A stretch of 64,000 nt of DNA from assembly GCA_964346695.1 (NCBI GenBank), contig CAYFVK010000002.1:22321-86320 (forward strand). Direction: 5' to 3'. Positions 4,051 to 33,044 of the stretch are shown in pieces. The translations under genes were made by a program, and so were the position numbers. How positions within the stretch are numbered: the stretch's first letter is position 1; each line of letters begins with the position of its first letter. This DNA is from an uncultured Mageeibacillus sp. Lineage in GTDB: Bacteria; Bacillota; Clostridia; Saccharofermentanales; DTU023. Under the pieces are notes generated by a model. It had not been told where the DNA came from and made no database searches. It was given only the letters and a program-made list of their open reading frames with translations.

Positions 4051-6498
4051 TTGAGTTTTAGAATGCAAAAAGCGGAAAACAAAGAAAAAAAGAGCAGCGA
4101 GTCCGCACAGGATTTGCTGAATACCCCGGCTACAGGTCTGACGGCGACCGAAGTCATGCGGCGCAGAGCGGACGGTCTGGGCAATGAAGCCAGTCAACTC
4201 TCAGTCAAACCGATTCGAAAAATTATCGCTGAACACGTTTTGACTCCGTTTAATTTATTGAACTTAATTTTATTTTTAATCATTATTTTTGTTTCTCTGA
4301 AAAATCCGAAATATTTATTGAACGGTTTCTTTTTCGGGGTTGCCCTCGTCAACACGGCAGGCGGCATTATTCAGGAACTGAAGGCGAGAAAAGAAGTTTT
4401 GCGCCTTTCCATTATCAATCAGCCCTATGTTTATGTGATTCGTGATGCCGAGAAGGAAAAAATTTCCGTTTCTGATCTGGTTGTCGGTGATTTGATCGAG
4501 CTCTATCCGCAAAATCAGATTGCTGTTGATGCCATTTATCTTGAAGGCCTGAATTTTCAGGTTGACGAATCTCATTTAAGCGGGGAGTCGGTTCCGGTTT
4601 TCAAAGCAAAAGGTGATCCTCTTCTTTCCGGTAGTTTTGTTATTTCCGGCAAAGCTAAAGCGATTGTTGAAAAAACGGGTACGGCGACATACTCCGCTAA
4701 ACTGACGGCAGAAGCCTCGGTTATCAAAAAACCGGATTCGGAAATCAAGATTGCCCTTGATCAAATCTCAAGATTCCTCGGCATCGCGATTATTCTGATC
4801 GGAACAGCGATGCTGATCAGCAAATTTTCCGCACGACCTTTCGCGGATTATCCTAATATTTTAACCACGACCGTGGCGGCGATGGTCGGCATGATTCCGG
4901 AAGGGCTTGTGCTGTTGAATACGGTCGCTTTCATTGTCGGGGTGATTAATCTGGCCCGACATCATATTCTGGTGCAACGCATGAATACGATCGAAACTCT
5001 GGCCAGAGTCGATACCATGTGCATGGATAAAACCGGCACCATTACCACGGGCGAGATGCAGGTTCTGGGAATTCACAGCGACGCGCCCCTGACCGCTGAG
5101 CAGGAGTCCGCGATCGTGACGGCTTTCCGAGCACTCGATGACGATAATGCCACGAGCCGCGCTATTCTCAAGCATTATGCTGATTTGGCGGAGGCGCAGG
5201 ACTTTGTGGTCAGCGAGCATTATTCTTTCAAATCCGAGAACAAATGGGCGGGAGTTGCCTTTGAAAAGCAGGGTACATGGCTTTTCGGCGCACCGGAAAT
5301 CCTCCTGTCCGCCCGGCAGTTAGACGCTGAGCAGGCTTATCTTGCCGAAACGACGAGCCGGGGTATTCGTTTATTATGCATCACGTTTACGCCCGAAAAA
5401 TTGCCGGATAAGGATACTTTACCTCAACAGCTGCAGCCGATCGGTTTTTTTGAGATTGAAGATACGATTCGTGAAAATGCCGGTCAATTGTTTAATTATT
5501 TCGCCGCCCAAAATGTGGATGTCAAAATCATCTCCGGTGATAATCCCCTTACCGTGCAGGGCATTGCCCGAAAAGCCAAGATCAGCGGTTTGGAAAAAGC
5601 GGTAGATTTAAGCAGCTTAGAAGCGAGCGGAGCAGCGATCGATTATGCCGAATTGGTTGAAAACTATCAGCTTTTCGGCAGAGTGACGCCTTTTCAGAAA
5701 AAAGAAATTATTCGCCATTTGCAAATGAATAATCATGTTGTGGCGATGACCGGTGACGGGATCAATGATGTTCCCGCATTCAAGGCGGCGGATTGCAGCG
5801 TGGCTATGGTCGAGGGTAGCGACGCTGCCAGGGTTTCCGCAGATCTGGTTTTGATGAAAAATGATTTATCGGCGATGATCCCGGCAGTTTATGAGGGCAG
5901 ACGGATTATCAATAATATTGAGCGGGTAGCCTGCCTGTTTTTAACAAAGACGGTTTATATGTCCATCTTGGCATTTATTTATATTTTCATGGCGGATAAT
6001 TTTCCGCTGTTCCCGATTCAGATGAGCTTGATCGGTTCGGGAACTATCGGCATTCCGGGCTTCTTCCTGTCTTTGATTCCCAATAAAAACAGAGTGAGCG
6101 GCAGATTTTTGGAAAAAACGCTCGGCATGGCGATTCCTTCCGGCTTGACGGCGGTTGTCGCCGTGATGGTTCATCAGCTGCTGGCCCGGGGTTTCGACAT
6201 TCGGCAAAGCCAGAATAATACAATCGTTCTGATCCTGCTTTTGACGGTCAGTATGATTGTTCTGTCCAGAGCCTGTATGCCCTTTACCAAGTATCGATTA
6301 GCCGTTTGGTTATTTTCCTTCGGCATCATCTTATTCGGTTTTTTGGTTATTCCGGACCTCCTGTTTTTAGAAAGACTTTCTCTCGCTTCCCTGAAATATG
6401 TGTTATGTTTTGTAATCGGCATCGTGCTGTTGCATTATATTTTGTATAGATTGAGTCAATACGTCATCGACAAATTTATTGTGAAGAAAAGGATCTGA
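4051..6498 (+). CDS. Cation-transporting P-type ATPase (P2/HAD-IC type, Ca2+/Mg2+-like)
   Basis: DKTGTITTG phosphorylation motif, MTGDGINDVPAFKAAD hinge, N-terminal GLTATEVMRRRADGLGNE cation-ATPase-N motif and about 10 TM segments. The ORF-track start is TTG 4051. ATG 4063 is an alternative. Confidence 0.85.
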   Translation: MSFRMQKAENKEKKSSESAQDLLNTPATGLTATEVMRRRADGLGNEASQLSVKPIRKIIAEHVLTPFNLLNLILFLIIIFVSLKNPKYLLNGFFFGVALVNTAGGIIQELKARKEVLRLSIINQPYVYVIRDAEKEKISVSDLVVGDLIELYPQNQIAVDAIYLEGLNFQVDESHLSGESVPVFKAKGDPLLSGSFVISGKAKAIVEKTGTATYSAKLTAEASVIKKPDSEIKIALDQISRFLGIAIILIGTAMLISKFSARPFADYPNILTTTVAAMVGMIPEGLVLLNTVAFIVGVINLARHHILVQRMNTIETLARVDTMCMDKTGTITTGEMQVLGIHSDAPLTAEQESAIVTAFRALDDDNATSRAILKHYADLAEAQDFVVSEHYSFKSENKWAGVAFEKQGTWLFGAPEILLSARQLDAEQAYLAETTSRGIRLLCITFTPEKLPDKDTLPQQLQPIGFFEIEDTIRENAGQLFNYFAAQNVDVKIISGDNPLTVQGIARKAKISGLEKAVDLSSLEASGAAIDYAELVENYQLFGRVTPFQKKEIIRHLQMNNHVVAMTGDGINDVPAFKAADCSVAMVEGSDAARVSADLVLMKNDLSAMIPAVYEGRRIINNIERVACLFLTKTVYMSILAFIYIFMADNFPLFPIQMSLIGSGTIGIPGFFLSLIPNKNRVSGRFLEKTLGMAIPSGLTAVVAVMVHQLLARGFDIRQSQNNTIVLILLLTVSMIVLSRACMPFTKYRLAVWLFSFGIILFGFLVIPDLLFLERLSLASLKYVLCFVIGIVLLHYILYRLSQYVIDKFIVKKRI

Positions 6499-24980: not shown

Positions 24981-25055
24981 GCCTCCTTAGTTAAATGGAT
25001 ATAACAAACCCCTCCTAAGGGTTAGTTGTGAGTTCGATTCTCGCAGGGGGTACCA
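24981..25055 (+). tRNA. tRNA-Arg (anticodon CCT), CCA encoded
   Basis: Manual cloverleaf: acceptor GCCTCCT/AGGGGGT (2 G-U pairs), D arm GTTA-AATGGATA-TAAC, anticodon arm AACCC-CTCCTAA-GGGTT, T arm GTGAG-TTCGATT-CTCGC, discriminator A plus CCA. Confidence 0.9.
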
Positions 25056-25064
25056 AGCCGGAAA

Positions 25065-25107
25065 GCGGTTATTGATACAATTTCGTGTATCGATAACTGC
25101 TTTTTTT
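25065..25107 (+). terminator. Rho-independent terminator of the tRNA-Arg(CCT) gene
   Basis: A 15-bp stem GCGGTTATTGATACA-atttcg-TGTATCGATAACTGC (2 G-U pairs) followed by TTTTTTT. Confidence 0.75.
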
Positions 25108-25216
25108 GTTTTGATTCTATTTTTGTCCGGAATGGAAAATGTGATTTCGTTTGTATGGATGATTTCACGCAGGGATGATAAAACAGCCTCAGTTTTCAAG
25201 GACTAAAAGGAATAGC

Positions 25217-25321
25217 ATGGGAGTTTCCTATGATAAACTTTTACATTTATTGATTGAACGACAAGTAAGTAATTCAGAGCTTATTAAAAAACTGGTTTTT
25301 CTGAAATGGTGCGTATACTAA
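25217..25321 (+). pseudogene. Remnant of a small XRE-type HTH regulator gene
   Basis: MGVSYDKLLHLLIERQVSNSELIKK resembles the N-terminus of short Cro/C1-type HTH proteins. The frame then runs into LVFLKWCVY*, and the expected recognition helix is missing. Confidence 0.3.
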
Positions 25322-25350
25322 AGGTTGTTTTATGGAACAATAAGAGAATA

Positions 25351-26167
25351 ATGAAAAAGACAATAGATTGGGGTGATAAATATACTCTTACCTGAACAGT
25401 TAATTGAAAAGCTCAAAAGCAAAGGTGTAAAATTTGAATTGTATTCAGAAGAGGATGCGATTGATTTTATAAATTATCACAACTATTAGGTAAAGTTAAC
25501 TGCTTATAGATCGAATTTCAGTAAACATAATAATCAATATGTAGGCTTAGACTTTCTATCTTTGAAAGATTTATCTACTATTGATATGCATTTAAAGCAT
25601 CTAATTTTGAAGGCCACACTAGGCATTGAACATTCTCTCAAAGTGAACGTTCTTAAAGATATTCAAGAAAGAAACATAGATGAGTTTCAGCTGGTTCGTG
25701 ATTATTTATCTCGGTTTAACAGGGTTCTAGATGTACTAAATGAAAGACGGAATAGTAGCTATGTGAAGAATTTATTATCTAAATATCCACACCCGGATTA
25801 TCCGATTTGGGTATTTCTTGAAGTAATTTCTTTTGGTGAATTTGTTAACTTTTATAGATTTTATTGTGAAACATATAACTGTGGCTCTTTGGATTATAAA
25901 ATTCTATATAGTGTTCGTGATATTCGTAATGCTGCTGCTCATAATAACTGTATTATTCACAATTTTCTTGATAAGAGTGGTTATTATAAAAAAGAAGTTG
26001 TATCTAAAGTACAAGTTCTTGTACCAGGGCTAAGATTAGGAACAATACGAGATAGATTAAAGAATCAGTCTGTGCAGGATTTTGTTTCAATTTTGATTGC
26101 ATTGGATACAGTTGTTATGAGCAAGGAATTTAAAAAGCAACTCTTGAGCGAATTTGCTACACTATAA
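25351..26167 (+). pseudogene. Abi-like (Abi_2/AbiD-F type abortive-infection family) gene, disrupted by one frameshift and one in-frame stop
   Basis: ATG 25351 gives MKKTIDWGDKYTLT*. The reading continues in another frame as LPEQLIEKLKSKGVKFELYSEEDAIDFINYHNY, then an in-frame TAG (25487-25489), then VKLTAYRSNF... The intact 3' part (ORF 25562-26167) carries SVRDIRNAAAHNN, the conserved Abi_2 core. Confidence 0.6.
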
Positions 26168-26259
26168 CCTACAAAAACGTTACACGATAAGGTATGGCAA
26201 GCTTTACAACAGCCTTAGCGGGTGCAGCGTCCGCAAGTACAAATTGCTCTTGATTTTCG

Positions 26260-27270: not shown

Positions 27271-29385
27271 ATGGAATTTTATATTGTCTTAGGTGTGGTT
27301 GTATTAACTGTCATCTATATTATCTACAATTATTTTCGTACTAAAAAATTAGAAGAAGGTACGGAAGAGATGAAAGAAATGGCACAGATCATTCGTGATG
27401 GCGCTATAACTTTCATGAAAACGGAATACAGGGTGATTTTTATTGTCACTCTGGTATTAGCCGTCGTTTTTTCTTTGTTTATTGAAAAAAGCAGCGGCTT
27501 AACTTTTTTATTCGGCGCATTAATGAGCAGTGCGGCTTGTATTATAGGCATGAGCAGTGCTACCTATGCCAATGTGCGAACTGCCAATCAAGCCAAAAAG
27601 ACTTTGTCTGTTGCGGAGACTGTTCGAGTCGCTTTGCGCGGCGGCAGTATTTGTGGCTTGGGTGTGCAGGCGTTCGGTATTTTGGGCGTGGTCATCATCT
27701 TATTAGTCACAGGCGTAGACCCTGAAGCAAGAGGCACGGGTTTTATTTCCAATTTAACCTGCAACCCGGATTTGATGCGCATTACAACTTATTCCTTAGG
27801 CTGTTCAGTAGTTGCCATGTTCAATCGTGTAGCAGGCGGCAACTATACCAAAGCAGCGGATATTTCGTCTGACATTTTGGCGAAAATCCGACATGACCTG
27901 CCGGAAGACGATAGCCGTATTCCGAATGTTGTCGCTGATTTTATCGGTGACAATGTAAATGATGTGGCAGGCAACTGTTCTGATTTGCTGGAAAGCTTTG
28001 TGGCCACTATTTCCGCAAGCATGATGATCGCGGTCACGATCTATAGCGGATCAGTCGCCAAGATTACAGAAGCTACTTTTAACGCGACCATCCTATTCCC
28101 GGTAGTATTGGCGGGAGCCGGCTTACTCAGCTGCTTGATCGGGCTCTTTATTTCGCTACAAAGAAAAATGAGCAATAATCCTTCCCGAAACCTGGATTTC
28201 GCTAATTGGGTTTCGGCGGGCTTAACCATTATTATCGGATGTTTTGTATCATATATTTTCTTCAAAGATGTTCCGCTCTATGATGAGTTTATTCTTGGCT
28301 GGATCAGCCCTTGGCTGTCCGCTGTGATGGGTATTATCAGCGGTATCGCGATTGGCGTTATTACGGAATACTACACCAGCAGCGACTATAAACCGACCAG
28401 AGAATTGGCGGAAATCGCGCATGAAGGCGAGGCTTTTATTGTTACGAAGGGTGACGCGATCGGTTCAAGATCCGCACTGTTACCGGTTCTTGTGATCGGT
28501 GTGGCTCTGTTTATTTCCGGTAAAATTTGCGGTACGTATGGAATCGCTATTTCAGCTTTAGGTATGCTGTCATTTGTCGGCGTAACGGTTACAATCGATG
28601 CTTTCGGTCCGATTGCCGATAATGCCGGCGGAATCGCGGAGTCTTGTCATTTATCTGAAGAAGTTCGTGAGATTACTGATAAACTCGACGCGGTAGGCAA
28701 TACTACTGCCGCGATCGGCAAAGGTTTCGCTATCGGTTCAGCGGCTTTTGCCACGGTTTCATTAATTGTCGCTTATGTCGGAAACTATACGACGATAGGT
28801 GAAATGCCGGTTTTGAATATCGCTTCTTTCGTAGTCATCGCAGGTGGTATTATCGGCGGCGCTCTGATTGAATATTTCTCAGCATTGCTGACCGATAATA
28901 CGATTGAATCGGCACGTCTGATGGCGGATCAGGGAGATGAAATGATGTCCGTGCCTGGTGTTTTGGAAGGAACGGTCAAACCGGATTACAATAAAGCGAT
29001 TGAAATGGCGGCAAAACAAGCCCTGCGCAAGATGCTGTTACCCTCAGTTTTAGCCATCTTTATCCCGATCGTCGGAGGATTCCTATTCGGCGTCGAATTT
29101 GTGGGCGGATTATTAATCGGCGCGACCATTGTCGCTATCCCGAGAGCGATCTTTATGGGCAATTCCGGAGGTGCTTTTGATAACGCCAAGAAATATATAG
29201 AAGCTGAGAATATCGAGGGACAAGGCAAAGGCTCACCCGCTCATAAGGCTTCCGTTACGGGAGATACCGTTGGCGATACGAGAAAAGATGTGGTCGGCGT
29301 GGCGCTTGATATCTTTATAAAAACGATGTCTACGGTCGCTAATACCTTAGCTCCGATCATCAGTAAGTTTACATTGATTAAATAA
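27271..29385 (+). CDS. hppA: Membrane-bound ion-translocating pyrophosphatase (H+/Na+-PPase)
   Basis: GGNYTKAADISSD, DFIGDNVNDVAGNCSDL, DAFGPIADNAGGIAE, GNTTAAIGKGFAIGSAA, NSGGAFDNAKKYIE and TGDTVGDTRKD are diagnostic M-PPase motifs. ATG 27271 follows a GAGGAGG RBS. Confidence 0.92.
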   Translation: MEFYIVLGVVVLTVIYIIYNYFRTKKLEEGTEEMKEMAQIIRDGAITFMKTEYRVIFIVTLVLAVVFSLFIEKSSGLTFLFGALMSSAACIIGMSSATYANVRTANQAKKTLSVAETVRVALRGGSICGLGVQAFGILGVVIILLVTGVDPEARGTGFISNLTCNPDLMRITTYSLGCSVVAMFNRVAGGNYTKAADISSDILAKIRHDLPEDDSRIPNVVADFIGDNVNDVAGNCSDLLESFVATISASMMIAVTIYSGSVAKITEATFNATILFPVVLAGAGLLSCLIGLFISLQRKMSNNPSRNLDFANWVSAGLTIIIGCFVSYIFFKDVPLYDEFILGWISPWLSAVMGIISGIAIGVITEYYTSSDYKPTRELAEIAHEGEAFIVTKGDAIGSRSALLPVLVIGVALFISGKICGTYGIAISALGMLSFVGVTVTIDAFGPIADNAGGIAESCHLSEEVREITDKLDAVGNTTAAIGKGFAIGSAAFATVSLIVAYVGNYTTIGEMPVLNIASFVVIAGGIIGGALIEYFSALLTDNTIESARLMADQGDEMMSVPGVLEGTVKPDYNKAIEMAAKQALRKMLLPSVLAIFIPIVGGFLFGVEFVGGLLIGATIVAIPRAIFMGNSGGAFDNAKKYIEAENIEGQGKGSPAHKASVTGDTVGDTRKDVVGVALDIFIKTMSTVANTLAPIISKFTLIK

Positions 29386-29478
29386 GTAAAAAAATCCATA
29401 ATTGAATAAACAGCAACCCGAACGAAACATTACTTCTCTTAAGGGTGGTAACTGAAGTTCAAAATAAAAAATGCCGTG

Positions 29479-29571
29479 ATGGAGCAGAATTTGCAAGGAA
29501 ATCAGTCCTGTAAAACTGATCAGAACATGTCAACTCAGACTTTTGATCTTTTCCTTGCGGTTTTGCTCCAT
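29479..29571. repeat. Long imperfect inverted repeat (~22-nt arms, 48-nt spacer) downstream of hppA
   Basis: The left arm is ATGGAGCAGAATTTGCAAGGAAA. The right arm TTTCCTTGCGGTTTTGCTCCAT is the reverse complement except for the central 5-6 nt. The spacer contains nested hairpins (ATCAGT..ACTGAT, GATCA..TGATC). Confidence 0.5.
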
Positions 29572-29724
29572 TCTTGAAATTAGAAAACGCCGTATTCTGC
29601 TTTCCGAAAGGATCCTGTTCCTGATCATGATAATCTGATTGATTACTTAATATAAGAGCGATCCGCTTTCATCAATTTGTATAATGTCGAAACTCCGGGA
29701 TTTCAAAGACAAAGGGGGACTCGT

Positions 29725-30729
29725 ATGGCAGCCAAAGAGCGTAAAGGTGAGAATCAAAAGCTGAAGATGCTGTATCTGGTCAAGATTTTTCTTGAAGAAA
29801 CGGATGATCAGCATGCTCTGACAATGAAGGAAATCATCGAAAAGCTGGAAAGCTATGGTGTCAGCGCAGACCGAAAAACCTTATATCTTGATTTTGCGGA
29901 ACTCAGAAATTTCGGTTTGGATATTGTCGCTGAAAAAGAGGGGAGAAATTGCTACTACTCGCTTGTCGGCCGTCGTTTTGAACTGCCTGAGCTCAAACTC
30001 TTAGTCGATTCCGTCCAATCTTCCAAATTTATCACAAATAAAAAATCTAAAGAATTAATTAAAAAGTTGGAGTCTTTGGTAAGCAAGCATGAAGCTAAAC
30101 AATTACAGCGTCAGGTCGTGATTTCCGGCCGTATCAAATCGATGAATGAGAGCATTTATTATAATGTCGATAGGATTCATGAGGCGATCGGATCCGATGC
30201 CAAAATTCGTTTCCGCTATTTTCAGTGGAATCTCAAAAAAGAAATGCAATTGCGCCGCAAAGGCGCATTTTATGAAGTCAGTCCTTGGGCGCTGATGTGG
30301 GAAGATGAAAATTATTATCTGATCGCCTATGACAGCAGAGATGATAAAATCAAACATTATCGTGTCGATAAAATGCTGCAAATCTCGGTTCTGAAGCAAA
30401 AGAGAGAAGGGCTGGAACAGATCAAGACCTTCGATATGCCCCGCTATACCAATCGCCTTTTCGGCATGTACGGTGGCGAAGAAACGAATGTCACATTGCG
30501 GGTCAAAAATGAATTGATCGGGGTCATGATCGACCGCTTCGGCAAAGATATTCTCATCATGCCTGTTGATGAAAATTATTTTCAAACAGTCGTTCATGTT
30601 TTTCTGAGCAATCAATTCTTGGGTTGGATTTTAGCTTTAGGCGAGGGCATGAAAATTATCGGTCCGGAAAAAGTTGTTCAAAGTATGCGTTCCGAATTGC
30701 AAAAACTTGCGCAGCTTTATCAAATATAA
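29725..30729 (+). CDS. WYL-domain transcriptional regulator (N-terminal wHTH, central WYL, C-terminal extension)
   Basis: The wHTH region reads LKMLYLVKIFLEETDDQHALTMKEIIEKLESYGVSADRKTLYLDFAELRNFGLDI. The WYL-type core reads IRFRYFQW...YEVSPWALMWEDENYYLIAYDSRDDKIKHYRVDKM. ATG 29725 follows an AAGGGGGA RBS and a TTGTATAAT extended -10. Confidence 0.8.
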   Translation: MAAKERKGENQKLKMLYLVKIFLEETDDQHALTMKEIIEKLESYGVSADRKTLYLDFAELRNFGLDIVAEKEGRNCYYSLVGRRFELPELKLLVDSVQSSKFITNKKSKELIKKLESLVSKHEAKQLQRQVVISGRIKSMNESIYYNVDRIHEAIGSDAKIRFRYFQWNLKKEMQLRRKGAFYEVSPWALMWEDENYYLIAYDSRDDKIKHYRVDKMLQISVLKQKREGLEQIKTFDMPRYTNRLFGMYGGEETNVTLRVKNELIGVMIDRFGKDILIMPVDENYFQTVVHVFLSNQFLGWILALGEGMKIIGPEKVVQSMRSELQKLAQLYQI

Positions 30730-30872
30730 TCTCGCAAATACCGGATTTTTCCTATATAAAATGCCATATTCCTATGTATATTTCAGCTTTTGCTGCCCAC
30801 TCATTAAGTCTGTTTTTTGGGACTAATGCTCCTCTATAATAAAAGTATCAAAGAGTAAAGGAGTGTAAGCCA

Positions 30873-31268
30873 ATGGATATGATTTATTTTACAATCGCGG
30901 GTACTTGCCATTATTATGGAGCGGAATTTTTGGAACCGAAGATGCAGGTTTGTCTGGTTAAGGAACCTGACAATGAAGCTGATAAGGAAGCCATAAAAGT
31001 AGAATTGCCGGGGCTTGGTCTAATCGGCTATGTCGCGAACAGTCCCTATACCGTTCTCGGTGAAAGTTACAGTGCCGGCAGACTATATGACAAATTCGGC
31101 GACAATGCTCAAGGAACAGTTCTCTATGTCACCGATAAAGGTGTGCTTTGTACACTCAATCTCGAAAATTTATCTGAAACAGACGAAACTGAAGCGGTTA
31201 ATCTCAATGAGTCTGATCAGGAAAATGAGTCTGATCAGGAAAATGAGTCTGATCAGGAGACAGATTAA
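30873..31268 (+). CDS. Stand-alone HIRAN-domain protein with an acidic repeat tail
   Basis: FTIAGTCHYYGAEFLEPKMQVCLVKEPDNEADKEAIKVELPGLGLIGYVAN matches the HIRAN pattern (G..yY.G...l..g..v.L.rEPdN..D.nAI.V...g..iGYv). The C-terminus is NESDQE x3. Confidence 0.75.
   Translation: MDMIYFTIAGTCHYYGAEFLEPKMQVCLVKEPDNEADKEAIKVELPGLGLIGYVANSPYTVLGESYSAGRLYDKFGDNAQGTVLYVTDKGVLCTLNLENLSETDETEAVNLNESDQENESDQENESDQETD
31206..31259 (+). repeat. 18-bp tandem repeat x3 inside the HIRAN gene 3' end
   Basis: AATGAGTCTGATCAGGAA occurs three times in a row (last base A>G in copy 3) and encodes NESDQE x3. Confidence 0.95.
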
Positions 31269-31373
31269 ATTCAGTCAAGACAAATTTTATGCTAAAATTG
31301 AATTCAGATTTTGTTGATTGTTCCGCTTATTAAAGAAAGCATTGAACGGTTCTTAGCTGAGGAGTGTGAAATA

Positions 31374-31739
31374 ATGACCTTGTTTGAATTCATAAAAAGC
31401 ATAGCCCGATTGCCGATCGATAAAGCTTTTGCATCTATTAAAAATCATCAGGATTATTCAGATCACCTGAAAAGCGAAGCTCCGCATTTTCTGCAGCCGG
31501 AAGGCAAGACGTTTACCCTCTATTCAGATGATTTCATTTTTAAAAACGGAGATGTTATTTCCTATACGGCACAGGAGGATCCGAAAAATCACCAGCCTTT
31601 GCCGAATGGCTTCTGGGATTATTATCTTTCGAGCAAACGTTTATGGTATCGCTATGAAGTGGAGGAAGAAGCATTCGTCTTTCATGACACCAGCAAAGAT
31701 CATCGTGAAGTTAAACCTAAATTTGCCAAACATGGTTGA
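31374..31739 (+). CDS. Hypothetical 121-aa protein, no recognisable motif
   Basis: ATG 31374 (MTLFEFIKSIARL...) follows a GAGGAG RBS. The stop codon lies 3-6 nt before the next gene's start. I recognise no family. Confidence 0.5.
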   Translation: MTLFEFIKSIARLPIDKAFASIKNHQDYSDHLKSEAPHFLQPEGKTFTLYSDDFIFKNGDVISYTAQEDPKNHQPLPNGFWDYYLSSKRLWYRYEVEEEAFVFHDTSKDHREVKPKFAKHG

Positions 31740-31745
31740 AGCGTG

Positions 31746-33044
31746 ATGACGGGGAATCAATTTCAAAACATTATTCTTCCCACTCTCTTCGGGGTCGAAT
31801 CGGTCACCGCGCAGGAACTGAAGGAGTTGGGATTTGCCAAATCTTCGATCACGGTCAAAGACGCGGAAGTGATTTTACATGTTGCTGATCCGAAAGAAAT
31901 TCCGACATTTATTGCCAGATTAAACTTCGGGCTGAGAACAGCCGAACGAGTTCTGCTCGAGTTGGCGGAGTTTCAGGTAGCTAGCTTTGACGAACTGTTT
32001 GATCAGGTTCAGGCTTTACCGTGGCATCAATGGTTGGATAAGGGTTATTTTATCGAAATTACAGGATACAGCCGCAAGTCGCGGCTGACCAGCATTCCCG
32101 CCTGCCAGAGTATCATTAAGAAGGCGATTACGGGGCAGCTCAATTCAATTTATCATTATCAAGATGGTCAAGTCCCGGAACAACGCCGACAAGGCGTCAA
32201 TACCATTCGTTTTTCGATTGTTGATGATCGGATCCGTTTGATGCTGGATACAACAGGAGATCCGCTGCATAAGCGCGGCTATCGCCCGACTGTTCATGAG
32301 GCTCCTTTACGAGAAACCTTAGCGGCGGCGATTTTGATTCTTTCTTTCTATCAGCGGAATATAAAAAACGGGGAGTCGCTCTGGGATCCTTTTTGCGGCA
32401 GCGGAACTTTTTTGATCGAGGCTGCGCTCATGGCAACCGGTACGGCGCCGGGGCTTCTGCGCCATTTCCTTGCGGAAAAGTATCAGCTTATCGGAAAAAC
32501 TTTTTTTGATCGTGAACGCGAATTGGCGAAAAATAAATCTTTACTTTATTTTCCTGAAAGAGCGCGTCAATTCAAGCCGGAACAAAGGGCAAATAATCAT
32601 TTCATGCTGAAGCCGCCTTATATCTTACCGGATCACTCGCCCCGGATTTTTGGTACGGATATTGACCATGAATCTGTTGAAGCGGCGCAAAAGAACGCGG
32701 CGCGGGCAGGGGTTCTGGAAATGATTGACTTTCAGGTACAAGACATTCGAAATTTGAGCCATGCTCAGATGGTCAAAAGAGCCGGTATCGACCGCTTGCT
32801 GATCGTGACAAATCCGCCTTATGGCGAAAGACTGGCTGATGCTGAGCAGACAAGAATGTTGGAAAAGGAAATCAAACGCTGTTGCTTTGCAAAGAATAAC
32901 TTATGCCAAGGAATTCGGCTTTCCGTCCTGACTTCCGATCGGGATTTTGAAAAAAATATTAATCAGCGGGCGGATAAGCACCGTAAATTATATAATGGCG
33001 GCTTGCGTTGTACTTTATATCACTTTTTTCGCGATAAGCAGTAA
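31746..33044 (+). CDS. THUMP-domain class I SAM-dependent RNA methyltransferase (RlmL/YpsC-like, COG0116)
   Basis: The N-terminal ferredoxin-like/THUMP region reads LFGVESVTAQELKELGF...RTAERVLLELAEF. Methyltransferase motifs are DPFCGSGTFLIEAA and VTNPPYGERL. GTG 31743 and ATG 31746 are both possible starts. Confidence 0.8.
   Translation: MTGNQFQNIILPTLFGVESVTAQELKELGFAKSSITVKDAEVILHVADPKEIPTFIARLNFGLRTAERVLLELAEFQVASFDELFDQVQALPWHQWLDKGYFIEITGYSRKSRLTSIPACQSIIKKAITGQLNSIYHYQDGQVPEQRRQGVNTIRFSIVDDRIRLMLDTTGDPLHKRGYRPTVHEAPLRETLAAAILILSFYQRNIKNGESLWDPFCGSGTFLIEAALMATGTAPGLLRHFLAEKYQLIGKTFFDRERELAKNKSLLYFPERARQFKPEQRANNHFMLKPPYILPDHSPRIFGTDIDHESVEAAQKNAARAGVLEMIDFQVQDIRNLSHAQMVKRAGIDRLLIVTNPPYGERLADAEQTRMLEKEIKRCCFAKNNLCQGIRLSVLTSDRDFEKNINQRADKHRKLYNGGLRCTLYHFFRDKQ

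What the first reader, a model, noticed from the sequence alone, without database searches (positions are those of the whole stretch)
29725..31739. WYL regulator + stand-alone HIRAN protein + unknown 121-aa protein: candidate ssDNA/DNA-end sensing module
Three same-strand genes sit between hppA and a housekeeping RNA methyltransferase. They are a 334-aa wHTH-WYL regulator, a 131-aa protein that is essentially a bare HIRAN domain with an acidic NESDQE x3 tail, and a 121-aa protein with no motif I can recognise. Established knowledge supports a DNA-end link on both sides. WYL regulators of this architecture (PafBC, DriD, BrxR/CapW) switch on DNA-damage or anti-phage genes, and for DriD/PafBC the WYL ligand is ssDNA. 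The HIRAN domain of HLTF binds free 3' ssDNA ends. Pairing a putative ssDNA-sensing regulator with a putative 3'-end binding effector suggests a LexA-independent damage- or phage-responsive unit whose output is not described. This is inference from domain logic only.
Basis: partly seen in the sequence, partly recalled or inferred. Interest (0 to 1): 0.6.

Follow-up and report, generated by a model that had tools for sequence, protein, structure and literature searches.

The report
DriD-like WYL regulator controlling a HIRAN gene
Two of the three genes form a real pair, a DriD/PafBC-type WYL transcription factor and its likely direct target, a small DNA-end-binding HIRAN protein. The pair exposes an undescribed regulon signal in gut and rumen Clostridia that phage- and plasmid-like DNA also carries, while the third gene belongs to the neighbouring methyltransferase.

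Summary
The region has a 334-aa WYL+WCX regulator (29725-30729), a 131-aa HIRAN protein with an NESDQE x3 tail (30873-31268) and an unannotatable 121-aa ORF (31374-31739).

WYL and HIRAN are linked. They are adjacent in about 10% of loci starting from either gene, in several gene orders.

A conserved promoter connects them. It is an inverted repeat GTCC-N8-GGAC, exactly 11 nt, then TAnnnT, with no -35. It lies upstream of 64% of HIRAN genes and directly flanks 36% of WYL orthologues, whatever gene follows, against about 0.3% expected per flanking window. The window holds one copy (30808-30840), in front of HIRAN.

The regulator is closest in sequence and fold to the ssDNA-sensing activators DriD and PafBC, and the promoter layout matches published DriD promoters.

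Elsewhere the same promoter precedes Cas9, Cas3, Ogt, ADP-ribose hydrolases and, on virus-classified contigs without a WYL gene, ImmA/IrrE proteases and DNA methylases.

The 121-aa gene is not part of the unit. All its rare homologues sit upstream of the RlmL-type methyltransferase, without WYL or HIRAN.

Binding, activation, the ssDNA signal and HIRAN's role remain inferred.

The parts
29682..29687 (+). TATAAT hexamer preceded by TG, the likely -10 of the regulator's own promoter. No copy of the WYL-linked inverted repeat lies here.
   Evidence: Sequence read. The PWM scan found no hit of 10 or more in 29386-29724. The promoter assignment is inference.
29725..30729 (+). Gene for a 334-aa wHTH / three-helix linker / WYL / WCX transcription factor of the DriD/PafBC class.
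   Evidence: Pfam WYL 1.8e-11 and WCX 9.5e-7. The closest solved sequences are DriD at 1.6e-7 and PafBC at 0.028. The AF2 model has wHTH 8-80, helices 88-135, WYL 142-235 and WCX 253-331. Foldseek gives DriD 1.4e-12, PafBC 1.3e-11, BrxR 8e-7 and CapW 6.6e-6.
30808..30823 (+). Putative operator: inverted repeat GTCT-GTTTTTTG-GGAC (family consensus GTCC-N8-GGAC), sitting where a -35 element would be.
   Evidence: It is the only strong PWM hit in the 64-kb window (30806-30841, score 29.8; the next best is 11.7 and the shuffle maximum is 13.9). The same element is found upstream of 56 of 88 HIRAN genes and flanking 29 of 80 WYL orthologues.
30835..30840 (+). -10 hexamer TATAAT, exactly 11 nt after the right half-site. 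There is no -35 hexamer.
   Evidence: The fixed N11 spacing holds in 49 of 91 HIRAN upstream regions. It also holds in 72 of 100 viral-contig sites chosen by the repeat alone. None of 131 unique promoters reaches 4 of 6 matches to TTGACA.
30873..31268 (+). Gene for a 131-aa stand-alone HIRAN protein: HIRAN fold in residues 1-96 and a disordered acidic tail in 100-131.
   Evidence: Pfam HIRAN 5.4e-11. AF2 model with pLDDT 73.7 and tail below 50. Foldseek top hits are HLTF HIRAN 4S0N/4XZF and L. plantarum lp_0118 3K2Y at probability 1.00. There are 2569 homologues.
31185..31256 (+). 18-bp tandem repeat encoding the NESDQE x3 acidic tail, a lineage-specific extension.
   Evidence: the repeat finder family D1. 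Other homologues carry unrelated acidic tails (alignment A1). Four public contigs end inside this repeat.

Best explanation
The gene at 29725-30729 encodes a homodimeric wHTH-WYL-WCX transcription factor of the DriD/PafBC class. It probably binds the 16-bp inverted repeat at 30808-30823. That repeat replaces the -35 element of the HIRAN promoter and sits 11 bp upstream of the -10 hexamer (30835-30840).

On binding a nucleic-acid ligand in its WYL pocket, most likely ssDNA made by DNA damage or by invading DNA, it recruits RNA polymerase and switches on the HIRAN gene (30873-31268).

HIRAN is the commonest member of a dispersed regulon that uses this promoter in gut and rumen Clostridia. Other members include Cas9, Cas3, Ogt, ADP-ribose hydrolases and an Ada-zinc-like protein. 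On virus-classified contigs without their own WYL gene, the promoter precedes ImmA/IrrE proteases and DNA methylases.

The induced HIRAN protein probably binds free DNA 3' ends.

Shown here: the domain and fold assignments, the synteny, the motif with its fixed register, and its linkage to both genes. Inferred: binding of this protein to the motif, activation rather than repression, ssDNA as the signal, and HIRAN's biochemical role.
For: Linkage of the two genes:
- HIRAN is adjacent to 8 (plus 1 fragment) of 80 WYL orthologue loci from different species.
- A WYL gene is adjacent to 10 of 86 HIRAN loci.
- Gene orders differ: WYL then HIRAN, HIRAN then acidic protein then WYL (L001), and divergent (L025).
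- No other HIRAN copy occurs in the rest of those loci.

The promoter motif:
- GKAC-N11-TAnnnT occurs in 49 of 91 unique HIRAN upstream regions, against about 3% expected by chance.
- At PWM score 16 or more, it lies within 1.5 kb upstream of 56 of 88 HIRAN genes.
- In WYL loci chosen only by protein similarity, the motif lies within 400 nt after the WYL stop in 21 of 79 loci, and 14 of these have no HIRAN. It lies within 300 nt before the WYL start in 8 more. The background is 13 hits in 973 kb, or 0.003 per window.

Regulator and operator vary together:
- The orthologue group uses GTCC-N8-GGAC.
- The 27-30%-identical WYLs on Butyrivibrio plasmid pCY186 use GTGC-N8-GTAC/GCAC.
- A 25%-identical WYL in L141 is paired with GATGC-N12-GCATC.
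- All three are next to HIRAN and are followed by a TAnnnT -10 hexamer, 11 nt away in the first two classes and 6-7 nt away in the third.

Activator-type layout:
- None of 131 unique promoters has a usable -35.
- Spacing is fixed even in sites selected without reference to the -10 (72 of 100).
- Published DriD promoters have the same layout: no -35, with the site over the -35 position at a constant distance from the -10 (PMC13004042).
- The regulator carries the three-helix linker found in DriD. It ranks with DriD and PafBC five to six orders of magnitude better than with the repressors BrxR and CapW.

Ligand: six of nine DriD ssDNA-contact residues are kept or conservatively replaced, namely Y198, R213, K210, K208, Y212 and Y249 (residue list from PMC9186387).

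Signal: the genes behind the motif fit a DNA-damage or foreign-DNA response. They include Ogt, a UDG-like protein, a microbial PARG, ADP_ribosyl_GH, Cas9 and Cas3. On viral contigs they include Peptidase_M78 ImmA/IrrE in 27 loci. None of the 120 viral loci encodes a WYL homologue.
Against: - No experiment or binding data exist. The link between protein and motif rests on adjacency and covariation.
- Only about 10% of WYL orthologues sit next to HIRAN and only 36% are flanked by the motif, so other regulators cannot be excluded for the rest.
- Of the 131 promoters, 47% have a TG extended -10. Such promoters can fire without a -35, which fits a repressor equally well. The window's own promoter has no TG.
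- Three DriD ssDNA contacts are not kept: R176 is Ala, R178 is Tyr and R288 is Gln.
- Identity to DriD is only 17-19%, and the AF2 model is of moderate quality (pLDDT 68.6).
- In HIRAN, the equivalent of HLTF Tyr93 is Ala in the window protein and Tyr72 is His, so 3'-end binding is not assured.
- No classical repair genes such as recA or uvr were seen behind the motif, but only gene neighbourhoods could be scanned, not whole genomes.
Confidence: 0.5

Rival explanations
1. Same protein and same operator, but the regulator is a repressor like CapW or BrxR. It sits on the inverted repeat over the -35 position, blocks RNA polymerase, and leaves when its WYL domain binds ssDNA.
For: CapW and BrxR share the wHTH-WYL-WCX architecture and also appear in the fold search at E 8e-7 to 1e-4. 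The operator overlaps the core promoter. Of 131 promoters, 47% have a TG extended -10 that could work without a -35. CapW is published as an ssDNA-released repressor (PMC11662680, listed).
Against: DriD and PafBC match five to six orders of magnitude better, and only they are found by sequence. The protein has the DriD-type three-helix linker and length, 334 aa against 266-290 aa for BrxR and CapW. The operator is not in the regulator's own promoter: absent in the window and on the + strand upstream of WYL in only 1 of 80 loci. The strict 11-nt register with the -10, and the total lack of a -35, are what published DriD promoters show.
Confidence: 0.22
2. The WYL domain senses ADP-ribose or a nucleotide-derived ligand rather than ssDNA. 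The regulon would then answer to ADP-ribosylation conflicts with phages, as proposed for ARG-centred systems with WYL regulators.
For: ADP_ribosyl_GH, a microbial PARG and a ThsA-type Macro protein lie behind the motif. ADP-ribosylglycohydrolase is a recurrent WYL neighbour, in 5 loci. PMC9503650 describes ARG-centred systems with WYL regulators, and a protein (ARPP) paired with either HIRAN or a WYL regulator. R176 and R178 of the DriD ssDNA site are not kept.
Against: Six of nine ssDNA contacts are conserved, including the invariant Tyr and Arg. Every WYL regulator of this architecture with a determined ligand named in the papers found (DriD, PafBC, CapW) binds ssDNA (abstracts). Most regulon members (HIRAN, Cas9, Cas3, Ogt, ImmA, methylases) concern DNA rather than ADP-ribose.
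Confidence: 0.1
3. The motif is read by some other factor, such as another transcription factor or a special sigma factor. The WYL gene merely travels in the same variable regions as motif-bearing genes.
For: No binding data exist. About 64% of WYL orthologue loci show no flanking motif. The motif works in trans on viral contigs that lack WYL.
Against: Enrichment right next to WYL is about 100-fold and does not depend on the neighbouring gene. Distant WYL subfamilies come with different repeats in the same position. An inverted repeat with half-sites 12 bp centre to centre suits a dimeric wHTH, compared with DriD CGAC-N7-GTCG and DdaA CGWCA-N5-TGWCG. An element ending 11 nt from the -10 is too close to be a sigma -35.
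Confidence: 0.08
4. One reading: a closed three-gene module of WYL, HIRAN and the 121-aa protein.
For: The three genes share a strand. No terminator-like site was found between HIRAN and the 121-aa gene, so read-through is possible.
Against: The 121-aa family has only 6 other members at E 0.001 or better among 1.84 billion representatives. In every locus recovered (L179, L180, L181-183) the homologue lies directly upstream of the methyltransferase orthologue (55-59% identity), with no WYL or HIRAN. No 121-aa homologue occurs in any of about 170 WYL or HIRAN loci.
Confidence: 0.03

Closest known systems
DriD (Caulobacter crescentus), an SOS-independent DNA-damage activator
   Same: Architecture wHTH / three-helix linker / WYL / WCX and about 330 aa. 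It is the best match by sequence (E 1.6e-7) and by fold (1.4e-12). Its operator is an inverted repeat over the -35 position at a fixed distance from the -10, and its promoters lack a -35 (PMC13004042). Most ssDNA-contact residues are kept.
   Different: Only 17-19% identical, and from a different phylum. The operator is GTCC-N8-GGAC rather than CGAC-N7-GTCG. Three ssDNA contacts are replaced. The regulon differs, with HIRAN as the main target and no didA or bapE. The gene is often adjacent to a target, and virus-classified contigs carry the promoter.
PafBC (mycobacteria) and its -26 element promoters
   Same: A WYL activator that binds ssDNA. Its promoters have a fixed upstream element in place of the -35. 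It is the second-best fold match (9FND, 1.3e-11).
   Different: PafBC is a heterodimer or fusion of two WYL chains, whereas this is a single 334-aa chain, presumably a homodimer. The sequence match is marginal (E 0.028). The promoter element has a different sequence.
DdaA (Acinetobacter/Moraxellaceae)
   Same: A WYL activator whose motif precedes both DNA-repair genes and anti-phage genes such as CRISPR-Cas and restriction-modification (PMC12392091). This matches the mix seen here: Ogt, Cas9, Cas3 and HsdM.
   Different: The motif is CGWCA-N5-TGWCG, placed about 50 bp upstream of the start site. DdaA replaces LexA in that clade, which is unknown here. No HIRAN is reported, and that paper contains no occurrence of the word.
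CapW / BrxR defence-island repressors
   Same: wHTH-WYL-WCX architecture. CapW binds ssDNA. They are associated with CRISPR or defence genes.
   Different: They are shorter (266-290 aa) and much weaker matches (E 8e-7 to 1e-4, with none by sequence). They repress from an operator in their own promoter at the head of the defence operon. Here the operator follows the regulator gene and is missing from its own promoter.
HLTF HIRAN domain and L. plantarum lp_0118 (PDB 3K2Y)
   Same: The same fold (Foldseek probability 1.00, TM 0.5-0.62). The Asp equivalent to HLTF D94 is invariant (D37). lp_0118 is likewise a stand-alone bacterial HIRAN of about 100 aa.
   Different: No helicase or RING partner. 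The stacking residue Tyr72 is His, and Tyr93 is variable (Ala here). A family-specific invariant block GYVANSPYTV.GES.SAGRLYD has no HLTF counterpart. An acidic tail is present. Function is untested.
ARG-centred systems with WYL regulators, and ARPP-HIRAN / ARPP-WYL gene pairs (PMC9503650)
   Same: This is the only paper found that mentions both domains. ADP-ribosylglycohydrolase occurs next to WYL regulators, as seen in 5 loci here.
   Different: That work proposes negative regulation by an ADP-ribose ligand. It describes neither a direct WYL-HIRAN pair nor the operator. Whether the 205-aa Cys-rich partner of HIRAN found here is ARPP could not be checked.

Membership tests
WYL-domain transcription factors (wHTH-WYL-WCX, class A) | WYL domain (PF13280) followed by WCX domain (PF25583) | tested here: met
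   WYL 1.8e-11 over residues 148-221 and WCX 9.5e-7 over residues 254-329, both above the gathering scores.
WYL-domain transcription factors (wHTH-WYL-WCX, class A) | N-terminal winged helix-turn-helix | tested here: met
   No Pfam HTH model passes. The AF2 model shows three helices plus a beta hairpin in residues 8-80 at pLDDT 75-89. The full-length alignment to DriD covers 335-349 columns.
DriD/PafBC-type ssDNA-activated activators | Closest sequence and structural similarity to DriD/PafBC rather than to the repressor clade | tested here: met
   Profile against PDB: DriD 1.6e-7, PafBC 0.028, and no CapW or BrxR. Foldseek: DriD 1.4e-12, PafBC 1.3e-11, BrxR 8e-7, CapW 6.6e-6.
DriD/PafBC-type ssDNA-activated activators | Target promoters lack a -35 and carry the binding site at that position, at a fixed distance from the -10 | tested here: met
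   Fixed N11 spacing. None of 131 promoters reaches 4 of 6 matches to TTGACA. Published description of DriD promoters in PMC13004042.
DriD/PafBC-type ssDNA-activated activators | ssDNA-binding pocket residues in WYL, linker and WCX | tested here: inconclusive
   Six of nine DriD contacts are kept or conservatively replaced: Y192=Y198, R207=R213, R204=K210, K202=K208, W206=Y212, Y240=Y249. Three are not: R176 is A, R178 is Y, R288 is Q.
DriD/PafBC-type ssDNA-activated activators | Binds ssDNA and activates transcription after DNA damage | not testable with these tools
   Needs binding assays, in-vitro transcription or expression data.
DriD orthologue | Orthology-level sequence identity and the CGAC-N7-GTCG operator | tested here: not met
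   17-19% identity. The operator is GTCC-N8-GGAC. It works like DriD but is a separate clade.
CapW/BrxR defence-island repressors | Regulator heads a defence operon and binds an operator in its own promoter (autoregulation) | tested here: not met
   No motif lies upstream of the window's WYL gene. It is on the + strand upstream of WYL in 1 of 80 loci, and downstream in 21 of 79. The adjacent genes in the window match no complete PADLOC system.
HIRAN domain (PF08797) | Profile match and HIRAN fold | tested here: met
   Pfam 5.4e-11. Foldseek top hits are HLTF HIRAN and lp_0118 at probability 1.00.
HIRAN domain (PF08797) | 3'-end pocket residues of HLTF (Tyr72 and Tyr93 stacking; Asp94 to the 3'-OH) | tested here: inconclusive
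   The profile alignment to 4XZF/4XZG maps Y72 to H13 (nearly invariant), Y93 to A36 (variable in the family) and D94 to D37 (invariant). The roles of Y72 and Y93 come from PMC4666394. The role of D94 is from my own knowledge.
   All recovered homologue loci pair it with the RlmL-type methyltransferase and lack WYL and HIRAN.
Known anti-phage defence systems (PADLOC-DB) | Match to the component models of one defined system | tested here: not met
   WYL matches only the generic 'WYL, CAS-associated signalling' models (2.6e-30). HIRAN matches part of candidate PDC-M03B weakly (7e-6, 50 residues). The 121-aa protein matches nothing.

The most novel reading that the evidence does not exclude
Gut and rumen Clostridia have a DriD-like, ssDNA-triggered WYL regulon marked by one portable promoter cassette (GTCC-N8-GGAC, 11 nt, then -10). 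Mobile elements use the host regulator through that cassette. Prophages place it before their ImmA/IrrE protease, which would time induction. Phage-like and conjugative elements place it before HIRAN, DNA methylases and HsdM, so these would be made once incoming or damaged DNA yields ssDNA. The stand-alone HIRAN protein, with its acidic tail or acidic partner, would then cap free 3' ends. That could protect the ends, or it could mop up the ssDNA signal and damp the host response, which includes Cas9 and Cas3.
Probability: 0.25. Interest if true: 0.85.

Novelty: new variant of a known kind. Interest (0 to 1): 0.62.

Why it matters
WYL activators that sense ssDNA are an alternative to the LexA SOS switch. 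So far they are known in Actinobacteria (PafBC), Caulobacter (DriD) and Moraxellaceae (DdaA). This locus points to a counterpart in the Clostridia that dominate gut and rumen communities.

The counterpart has a readable operator. Its regulon can therefore be predicted from sequence in thousands of uncultured genomes and in their phage- and plasmid-like DNA.

The motif precedes ImmA/IrrE proteases on virus-classified contigs and precedes Cas9, Cas3 and restriction-modification genes. If that reflects real control, the signal would link DNA damage, prophage induction and immunity in the microbiome. That is relevant to how antibiotics and other genotoxic drugs could trigger phage release.

It also gives the first regulatory context for the abundant bacterial stand-alone HIRAN proteins, whose function is unknown. 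Butyrivibrio proteoclasticus B316 is a cultured organism in which to test this.

Tried and rejected
- Three-gene module: rejected on synteny of the 121-aa family.
- Inverted repeat as the terminator of the WYL gene: rejected. The stem is only 4 bp and the T-run lies in the loop. The element also occurs where no WYL gene lies upstream, and it keeps a fixed register with a -10.
- Known RNA element in the intergenic regions: none. No Rfam match at E of 1 or less in 29300-31800.
- Further motif copies in the window, to define a local regulon: none above shuffle level.
- Generic sigma-70 and terminator scan: uninformative, with counts equal to shuffles. It missed the HIRAN promoter because there is no -35.
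- NCBIfam and PHROGs: no informative names for WYL, HIRAN or the 121-aa protein.
- PADLOC: no system-level match.
- Literature: 'HIRAN domain' plus 'WYL domain' gave a single paper (PMC9503650). A search combining 'WYL domain' with Clostridia, Lachnospiraceae, Bacillota, Firmicutes and mitomycin listed no paper containing 'WYL domain' among its top results. The first HIRAN/WYL search was swamped by surnames.
- Source organism: not recoverable. The cluster look-up gave no names, and the exact-protein look-up of the regulator found nothing.
- Annotated phages and plasmids: one unannotated faecal phage record and one Butyrivibrio plasmid carry HIRAN.
- Identity of the 205-209-aa Cys-rich HIRAN partner: only a sub-threshold Ada_Zn_binding hit (22.5 bits against a cut-off of 23). 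Whether it is the 'ARPP' of PMC9503650 could not be checked.
Full report
**What is there.**

The three ORFs exist as described, all on the + strand.
- The regulator runs from the ATG at 29725, which follows an RBS, to 30729 and is 334 aa. This is the modal length of its homologues.
- It carries Pfam WYL (1.8e-11) and WCX (9.5e-7).
- The second protein (30873-31268, 131 aa) matches Pfam HIRAN (5.4e-11). It ends in NESDQE x3, encoded by an 18-bp tandem repeat.
- The third ORF (31374-31739, 121 aa) matches nothing in Pfam, NCBIfam, PADLOC or PHROGs.
- The flanks are hppA (H_PPase, 6.6e-194) and an RlmL/THUMP-type RNA methyltransferase.
- Base composition is unremarkable across the three genes.

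**The 121-aa gene belongs to the methyltransferase, not to WYL-HIRAN.**
- A word-indexed search of 5.8 billion clusters found only the protein itself.
- A full HMMER pass over 1.84 billion representatives found six others at E of 0.001 or less. The five best are 34-41% identical.
- Every locus recovered for them (L179, L180, L181-183) has the homologue directly upstream of the methyltransferase orthologue, often overlapping it. That orthologue is 55-59% identical by tblastn.
- Upstream of these homologues lie a subtilase or an ABC transporter, never WYL or HIRAN.
- None of about 170 WYL or HIRAN loci contains a 121-aa homologue.
- In the window the 121-aa stop lies 3 nt before the methyltransferase start.
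- The conserved unit is therefore 121-aa plus rlmL. WYL-HIRAN is a two-gene unit sitting upstream of it.

**WYL and HIRAN are linked, but not obligately.**
- A scan of one genome per species found at least 549 relatives of the regulator. The best 80 (55-72% identity) come from Lachnospiraceae, other Clostridia, Mogibacterium/Anaerovoracaceae and even Acidaminococcaceae, with no shared flanking genes.
- HIRAN is adjacent in 8 of these 80 loci, plus one fragment. No HIRAN occurs elsewhere in the roughly 1 Mb of flanks.
- HIRAN is the largest cluster among all neighbours. Other recurrent neighbours are ADP-ribosylglycohydrolase, Macro proteins, a metallophosphatase and small HTH proteins.
- Starting from HIRAN, 10 of 86 metagenomic and viral loci have a WYL gene adjacent. 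Two of those WYL genes are only 25% identical to the window's.
- Gene orders differ: WYL then HIRAN, WYL then another gene then HIRAN, divergent, and HIRAN then acidic protein then WYL next to sbcCD (L001).
- HIRAN also occurs without WYL on mobilisable elements, next to relaxase, MobC and SAM synthetase, and on IMG/VR contigs.

**A shared promoter connects them.**
- Aligning HIRAN upstream regions by eye showed a conserved block.
- The block is an inverted repeat GTCC-N8(T-rich)-GGAC(A), exactly 11 nt, then TAnnnT.
- The regex GKAC-N11-TAnnnT hits 49 of 91 unique upstream regions, 47-94 nt from the start codon in nearly all of them, where about 3% would be expected.
- A 36-column matrix built from these finds a site within 1.5 kb upstream of 56 of 88 HIRAN genes. 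The distal sites lie in front of a first gene of a HIRAN operon.
- In the 64-kb window the matrix gives one strong hit, 30806-30841 (score 29.8). It lies 32 nt upstream of the HIRAN start codon. Everything else is at shuffle level.
- Window coordinates are GTCT 30808-30811, GGAC 30820-30823 and TATAAT 30835-30840.

**The motif tracks the regulator gene independently of HIRAN.**
- The 80 WYL loci were chosen by protein similarity alone.
- The motif lies on the + strand within 400 nt after the WYL stop in 21 of 79 loci, and 14 of these lack HIRAN.
- It lies within 300 nt upstream of the WYL start in 8 more. Seven of these face a divergent gene.
- The rest of those loci hold 13 hits in 973 kb, which gives 0.003 expected per window.

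**What follows the motif differs from locus to locus.**
- HIRAN follows the motif in 53 loci.
- A 205-209-aa Cys-rich protein with a sub-threshold Ada_Zn_binding hit follows it in others.
- Further targets are Cas9 (L069, L072), Cas3 (L063, L073) and ADP_ribosyl_GH.
- Others are a microbial PARG, a ThsA-type Macro protein and Ogt.
- The remainder include a UDG-like protein, an R2K ATP-grasp protein, DUF6847 and small acidic proteins.

**Distant WYL subfamilies next to HIRAN carry different repeats in the same place.**
- On Butyrivibrio proteoclasticus plasmid pCY186 the repeat is GTGC-N8-GTAC/GCAC.
- In L141 and six other HIRAN promoters it is GGATGC-N12-GCATCC.
- This covariation is the best available argument that the WYL protein reads the repeat.

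**Independent check of the promoter geometry.**
- A scan of IMG/VR with only the repeat core (AGTCCGTTTTWTNGKACA) returned at least 120 stretches.
- The -10 was not part of the pattern, yet 72 of 100 sites have TAnnnT at exactly +11, and 22 are TATAAT.
- Among 131 unique promoters, none reaches 4 of 6 matches to TTGACA at 16-18 nt spacing. TG in the extended -10 position is present in 47%. The window's promoter has no TG.

**Genes behind the motif on these viral contigs.**
- Peptidase_M78 ImmA/IrrE proteases form four clusters across 27 loci.
- HsdM follows the motif in 10 loci.
- Also found are C5 and MmeI-like DNA methylases, an AraC-type regulator and the Ada-zinc-like protein.
- None of the 120 loci encodes a WYL homologue. 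The element therefore acts in trans, through a factor supplied by the host.

**What kind of regulator it is.**
- By sequence the only solved relatives are DriD (5e-5 alone, 1.6e-7 with a family profile) and, marginally, PafBC (0.028).
- The AF2 model (pLDDT 68.6) has a winged HTH (8-80), three helices of low confidence (88-135), the WYL domain (142-235) and WCX (253-331).
- Foldseek ranks DriD (1.4e-12) and PafBC bound to RNA polymerase (1.3e-11) far ahead of BrxR (8e-7) and CapW (6.6e-6).
- Published work on DriD reports promoters with no recognisable -35. The binding site overlaps that position at a constant distance from the -10, and the three-helix bundles contact RNA polymerase (PMC13004042).
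- The geometry of the repeat (half-site centres 12 bp apart) resembles DriD CGAC-N7-GTCG and DdaA CGWCA-N5-TGWCG (PMC12392091).
- Six of the nine DriD ssDNA contacts listed in PMC9186387 are kept or conservatively replaced across the family: Y198, R213, K210, K208, Y212 and Y249. Three are not: A181, Y183 and Q297.
- I therefore favour an ssDNA-responsive activator at about 0.5 for the whole chain of inference.
- A CapW-like repressor remains a real alternative (0.22), mainly because an operator over the core promoter, together with the frequent extended -10, would also suit occlusion.

**HIRAN.**
- The family is large, with 2569 hits at about 70-80% identity over the domain.
- It is highly conserved and has an invariant block GYVANSPYTV.GES.SAGRLYD.
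- The model (pLDDT 73.7, tail disordered) matches HLTF HIRAN (4S0N, 4XZF) and the uncharacterised L. plantarum lp_0118 (3K2Y) at probability 1.00.
- In the profile alignment to HLTF, Tyr72 corresponds to a nearly invariant His and Tyr93 to a variable position (Ala here).
- Asp94, which to my knowledge contacts the 3'-OH, corresponds to the invariant Asp37. The stacking roles of Y72 and Y93 are from PMC4666394.
- Binding of 3' ends is thus plausible but not assured.
- Acidic tails of unrelated sequence recur in homologues. Elsewhere a separate small acidic protein follows HIRAN (L001, L131). An acidic appendage is therefore a family trait rather than an oddity of this genome.

**Comparison with what is known.**
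- The regulatory logic is that of DriD, PafBC and DdaA. The protein is not an orthologue of any of them.
- The operator, the leading target (a stand-alone HIRAN) and the presence of the promoter on virus-classified contigs appear in none of the papers I could find.
- The only paper naming both domains links them indirectly, through ARG-centred systems and a protein called ARPP, and proposes negative regulation by ADP-ribose (PMC9503650).
- I file it as a new variant of a known kind.

**Limits.**
- Only neighbourhoods could be scanned, not whole genomes. Regulon membership is therefore biased, and genome-level co-occurrence of regulator and motif is untested.
- The matrix was trained on HIRAN promoters that include eight WYL-adjacent loci. 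The 14 WYL loci without HIRAN and the viral sites are independent of that training set.
- No expression or binding evidence exists.

Noticed in passing
window 31374-33044; L179, L180, L181-L183: The 121-aa ORF and the RlmL/THUMP-type methyltransferase form a conserved, translationally coupled pair. The small protein's family is extremely rare: six other members at E 0.001 or better among 1.84 billion representative proteins. Its function is unknown. It may be a methyltransferase partner.
   Followed up: partly
window 29479-29571: A long imperfect hairpin lies downstream of hppA (GGAGCAGAATTTGCAAGGAAA ... TTTCCTTGCGGTTTTGCTCC, about 90 nt). It has no Rfam match. It is probably the hppA terminator or another structured element that separates hppA from the WYL gene.
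   Followed up: partly
window 25000-26250 (ORF 25562-26167): A patch of about 30% G+C holds an Abi_2/AbiD-like ORF (Pfam 4.2e-17, PADLOC AbiD 3.2e-11). The ORF matches only profile positions 36-183, so it is probably truncated at the N-terminus. It may be a remnant of an abortive-infection gene, 3.5 kb upstream of the WYL gene.
   Followed up: no
window 31185-31256; L175-L178: Four independent public contigs that carry the identical 121-aa gene all end 145 nt upstream of it, inside the 18-bp tandem repeat of the HIRAN tail. This suggests repeat-number variation or assembly breakage at that point.
   Followed up: partly
L107, L115, L116, L126, L141, L146, L152 (HIRAN upstream regions): A second promoter class precedes HIRAN: GGATGC-N12(A-rich)-GCATCC, then 6-7 nt, then TAnnnT. 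In L141 it lies between HIRAN and an adjacent WYL+WCX gene only 25% identical to the window's. This suggests a second regulator-operator pair with the same target.
   Followed up: partly
L184 (Butyrivibrio proteoclasticus B316 plasmid pCY186, NC_014390.1 132986-143261): A cultured organism carries McrBC - WYL - two unknown genes - HIRAN - replication initiator, plus a second WYL 3 kb away. Both WYL genes are flanked by a variant element: GTGC-N8-GTAC after the first WYL and GTGC-N8-GCAC before the second, each followed by 11 nt and TATTAT. This is a practical test system.
   Followed up: partly
L069 1306-, L072 2577-, L063, L073: In four species the WYL orthologue is followed or preceded by the motif, and the motif by a CRISPR nuclease gene: Cas9 in L069 and L072, Cas3 in L063 and L073. 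This suggests CRISPR-Cas expression is under this regulator.
   Followed up: partly
L185-L305 (IMG/VR contigs found with the repeat core), e.g. L207, L251, L213, L295, L270: On virus-classified contigs the commonest genes behind the motif are ImmA/IrrE-type Peptidase_M78 proteases (27 loci) and HsdM (10 loci), with no WYL gene nearby. This suggests prophage induction switches and methylases are wired to a host-encoded factor.
   Followed up: partly
L169-L174, L123, L143, L079, L080, L202: A 205-209-aa Cys-rich protein (HRPECRYA...GYRPCKCC; Ada_Zn_binding at 22.5 bits, just under the cut-off) is the second most frequent gene behind the motif. It often forms a two-gene operon with HIRAN. It may be the 'ARPP' reported as a HIRAN partner in PMC9503650, but this was not verified.
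   Followed up: partly
L003-L008 (about 4935-5650): On mobilisable elements, HIRAN with a weaker copy of the motif (GTAC-N8-GGAC, -10 TACGCT) and a 95-aa membrane protein sit divergently from SAM synthetase, MobC and relaxase. That is near the transfer origin, where early-expressed genes of conjugative elements are usually found.
   Followed up: no
L001 5338-5598; L131/L132 about 5129-; alignment A1: Highly acidic tails on HIRAN, or separate small acidic proteins just downstream (one with its own copy of the motif), recur across the family with unrelated sequences.
   Followed up: no
locus titles (L017, L020, L026, L051): Orthologues of the regulator at 62-66% identity occur in Negativicutes (Succiniclasticum, Acidaminococcaceae) and in a MAG labelled Chloroflexi, with no conserved flanks. 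This points to horizontal spread of the regulator, or to mis-binning.
   Followed up: no
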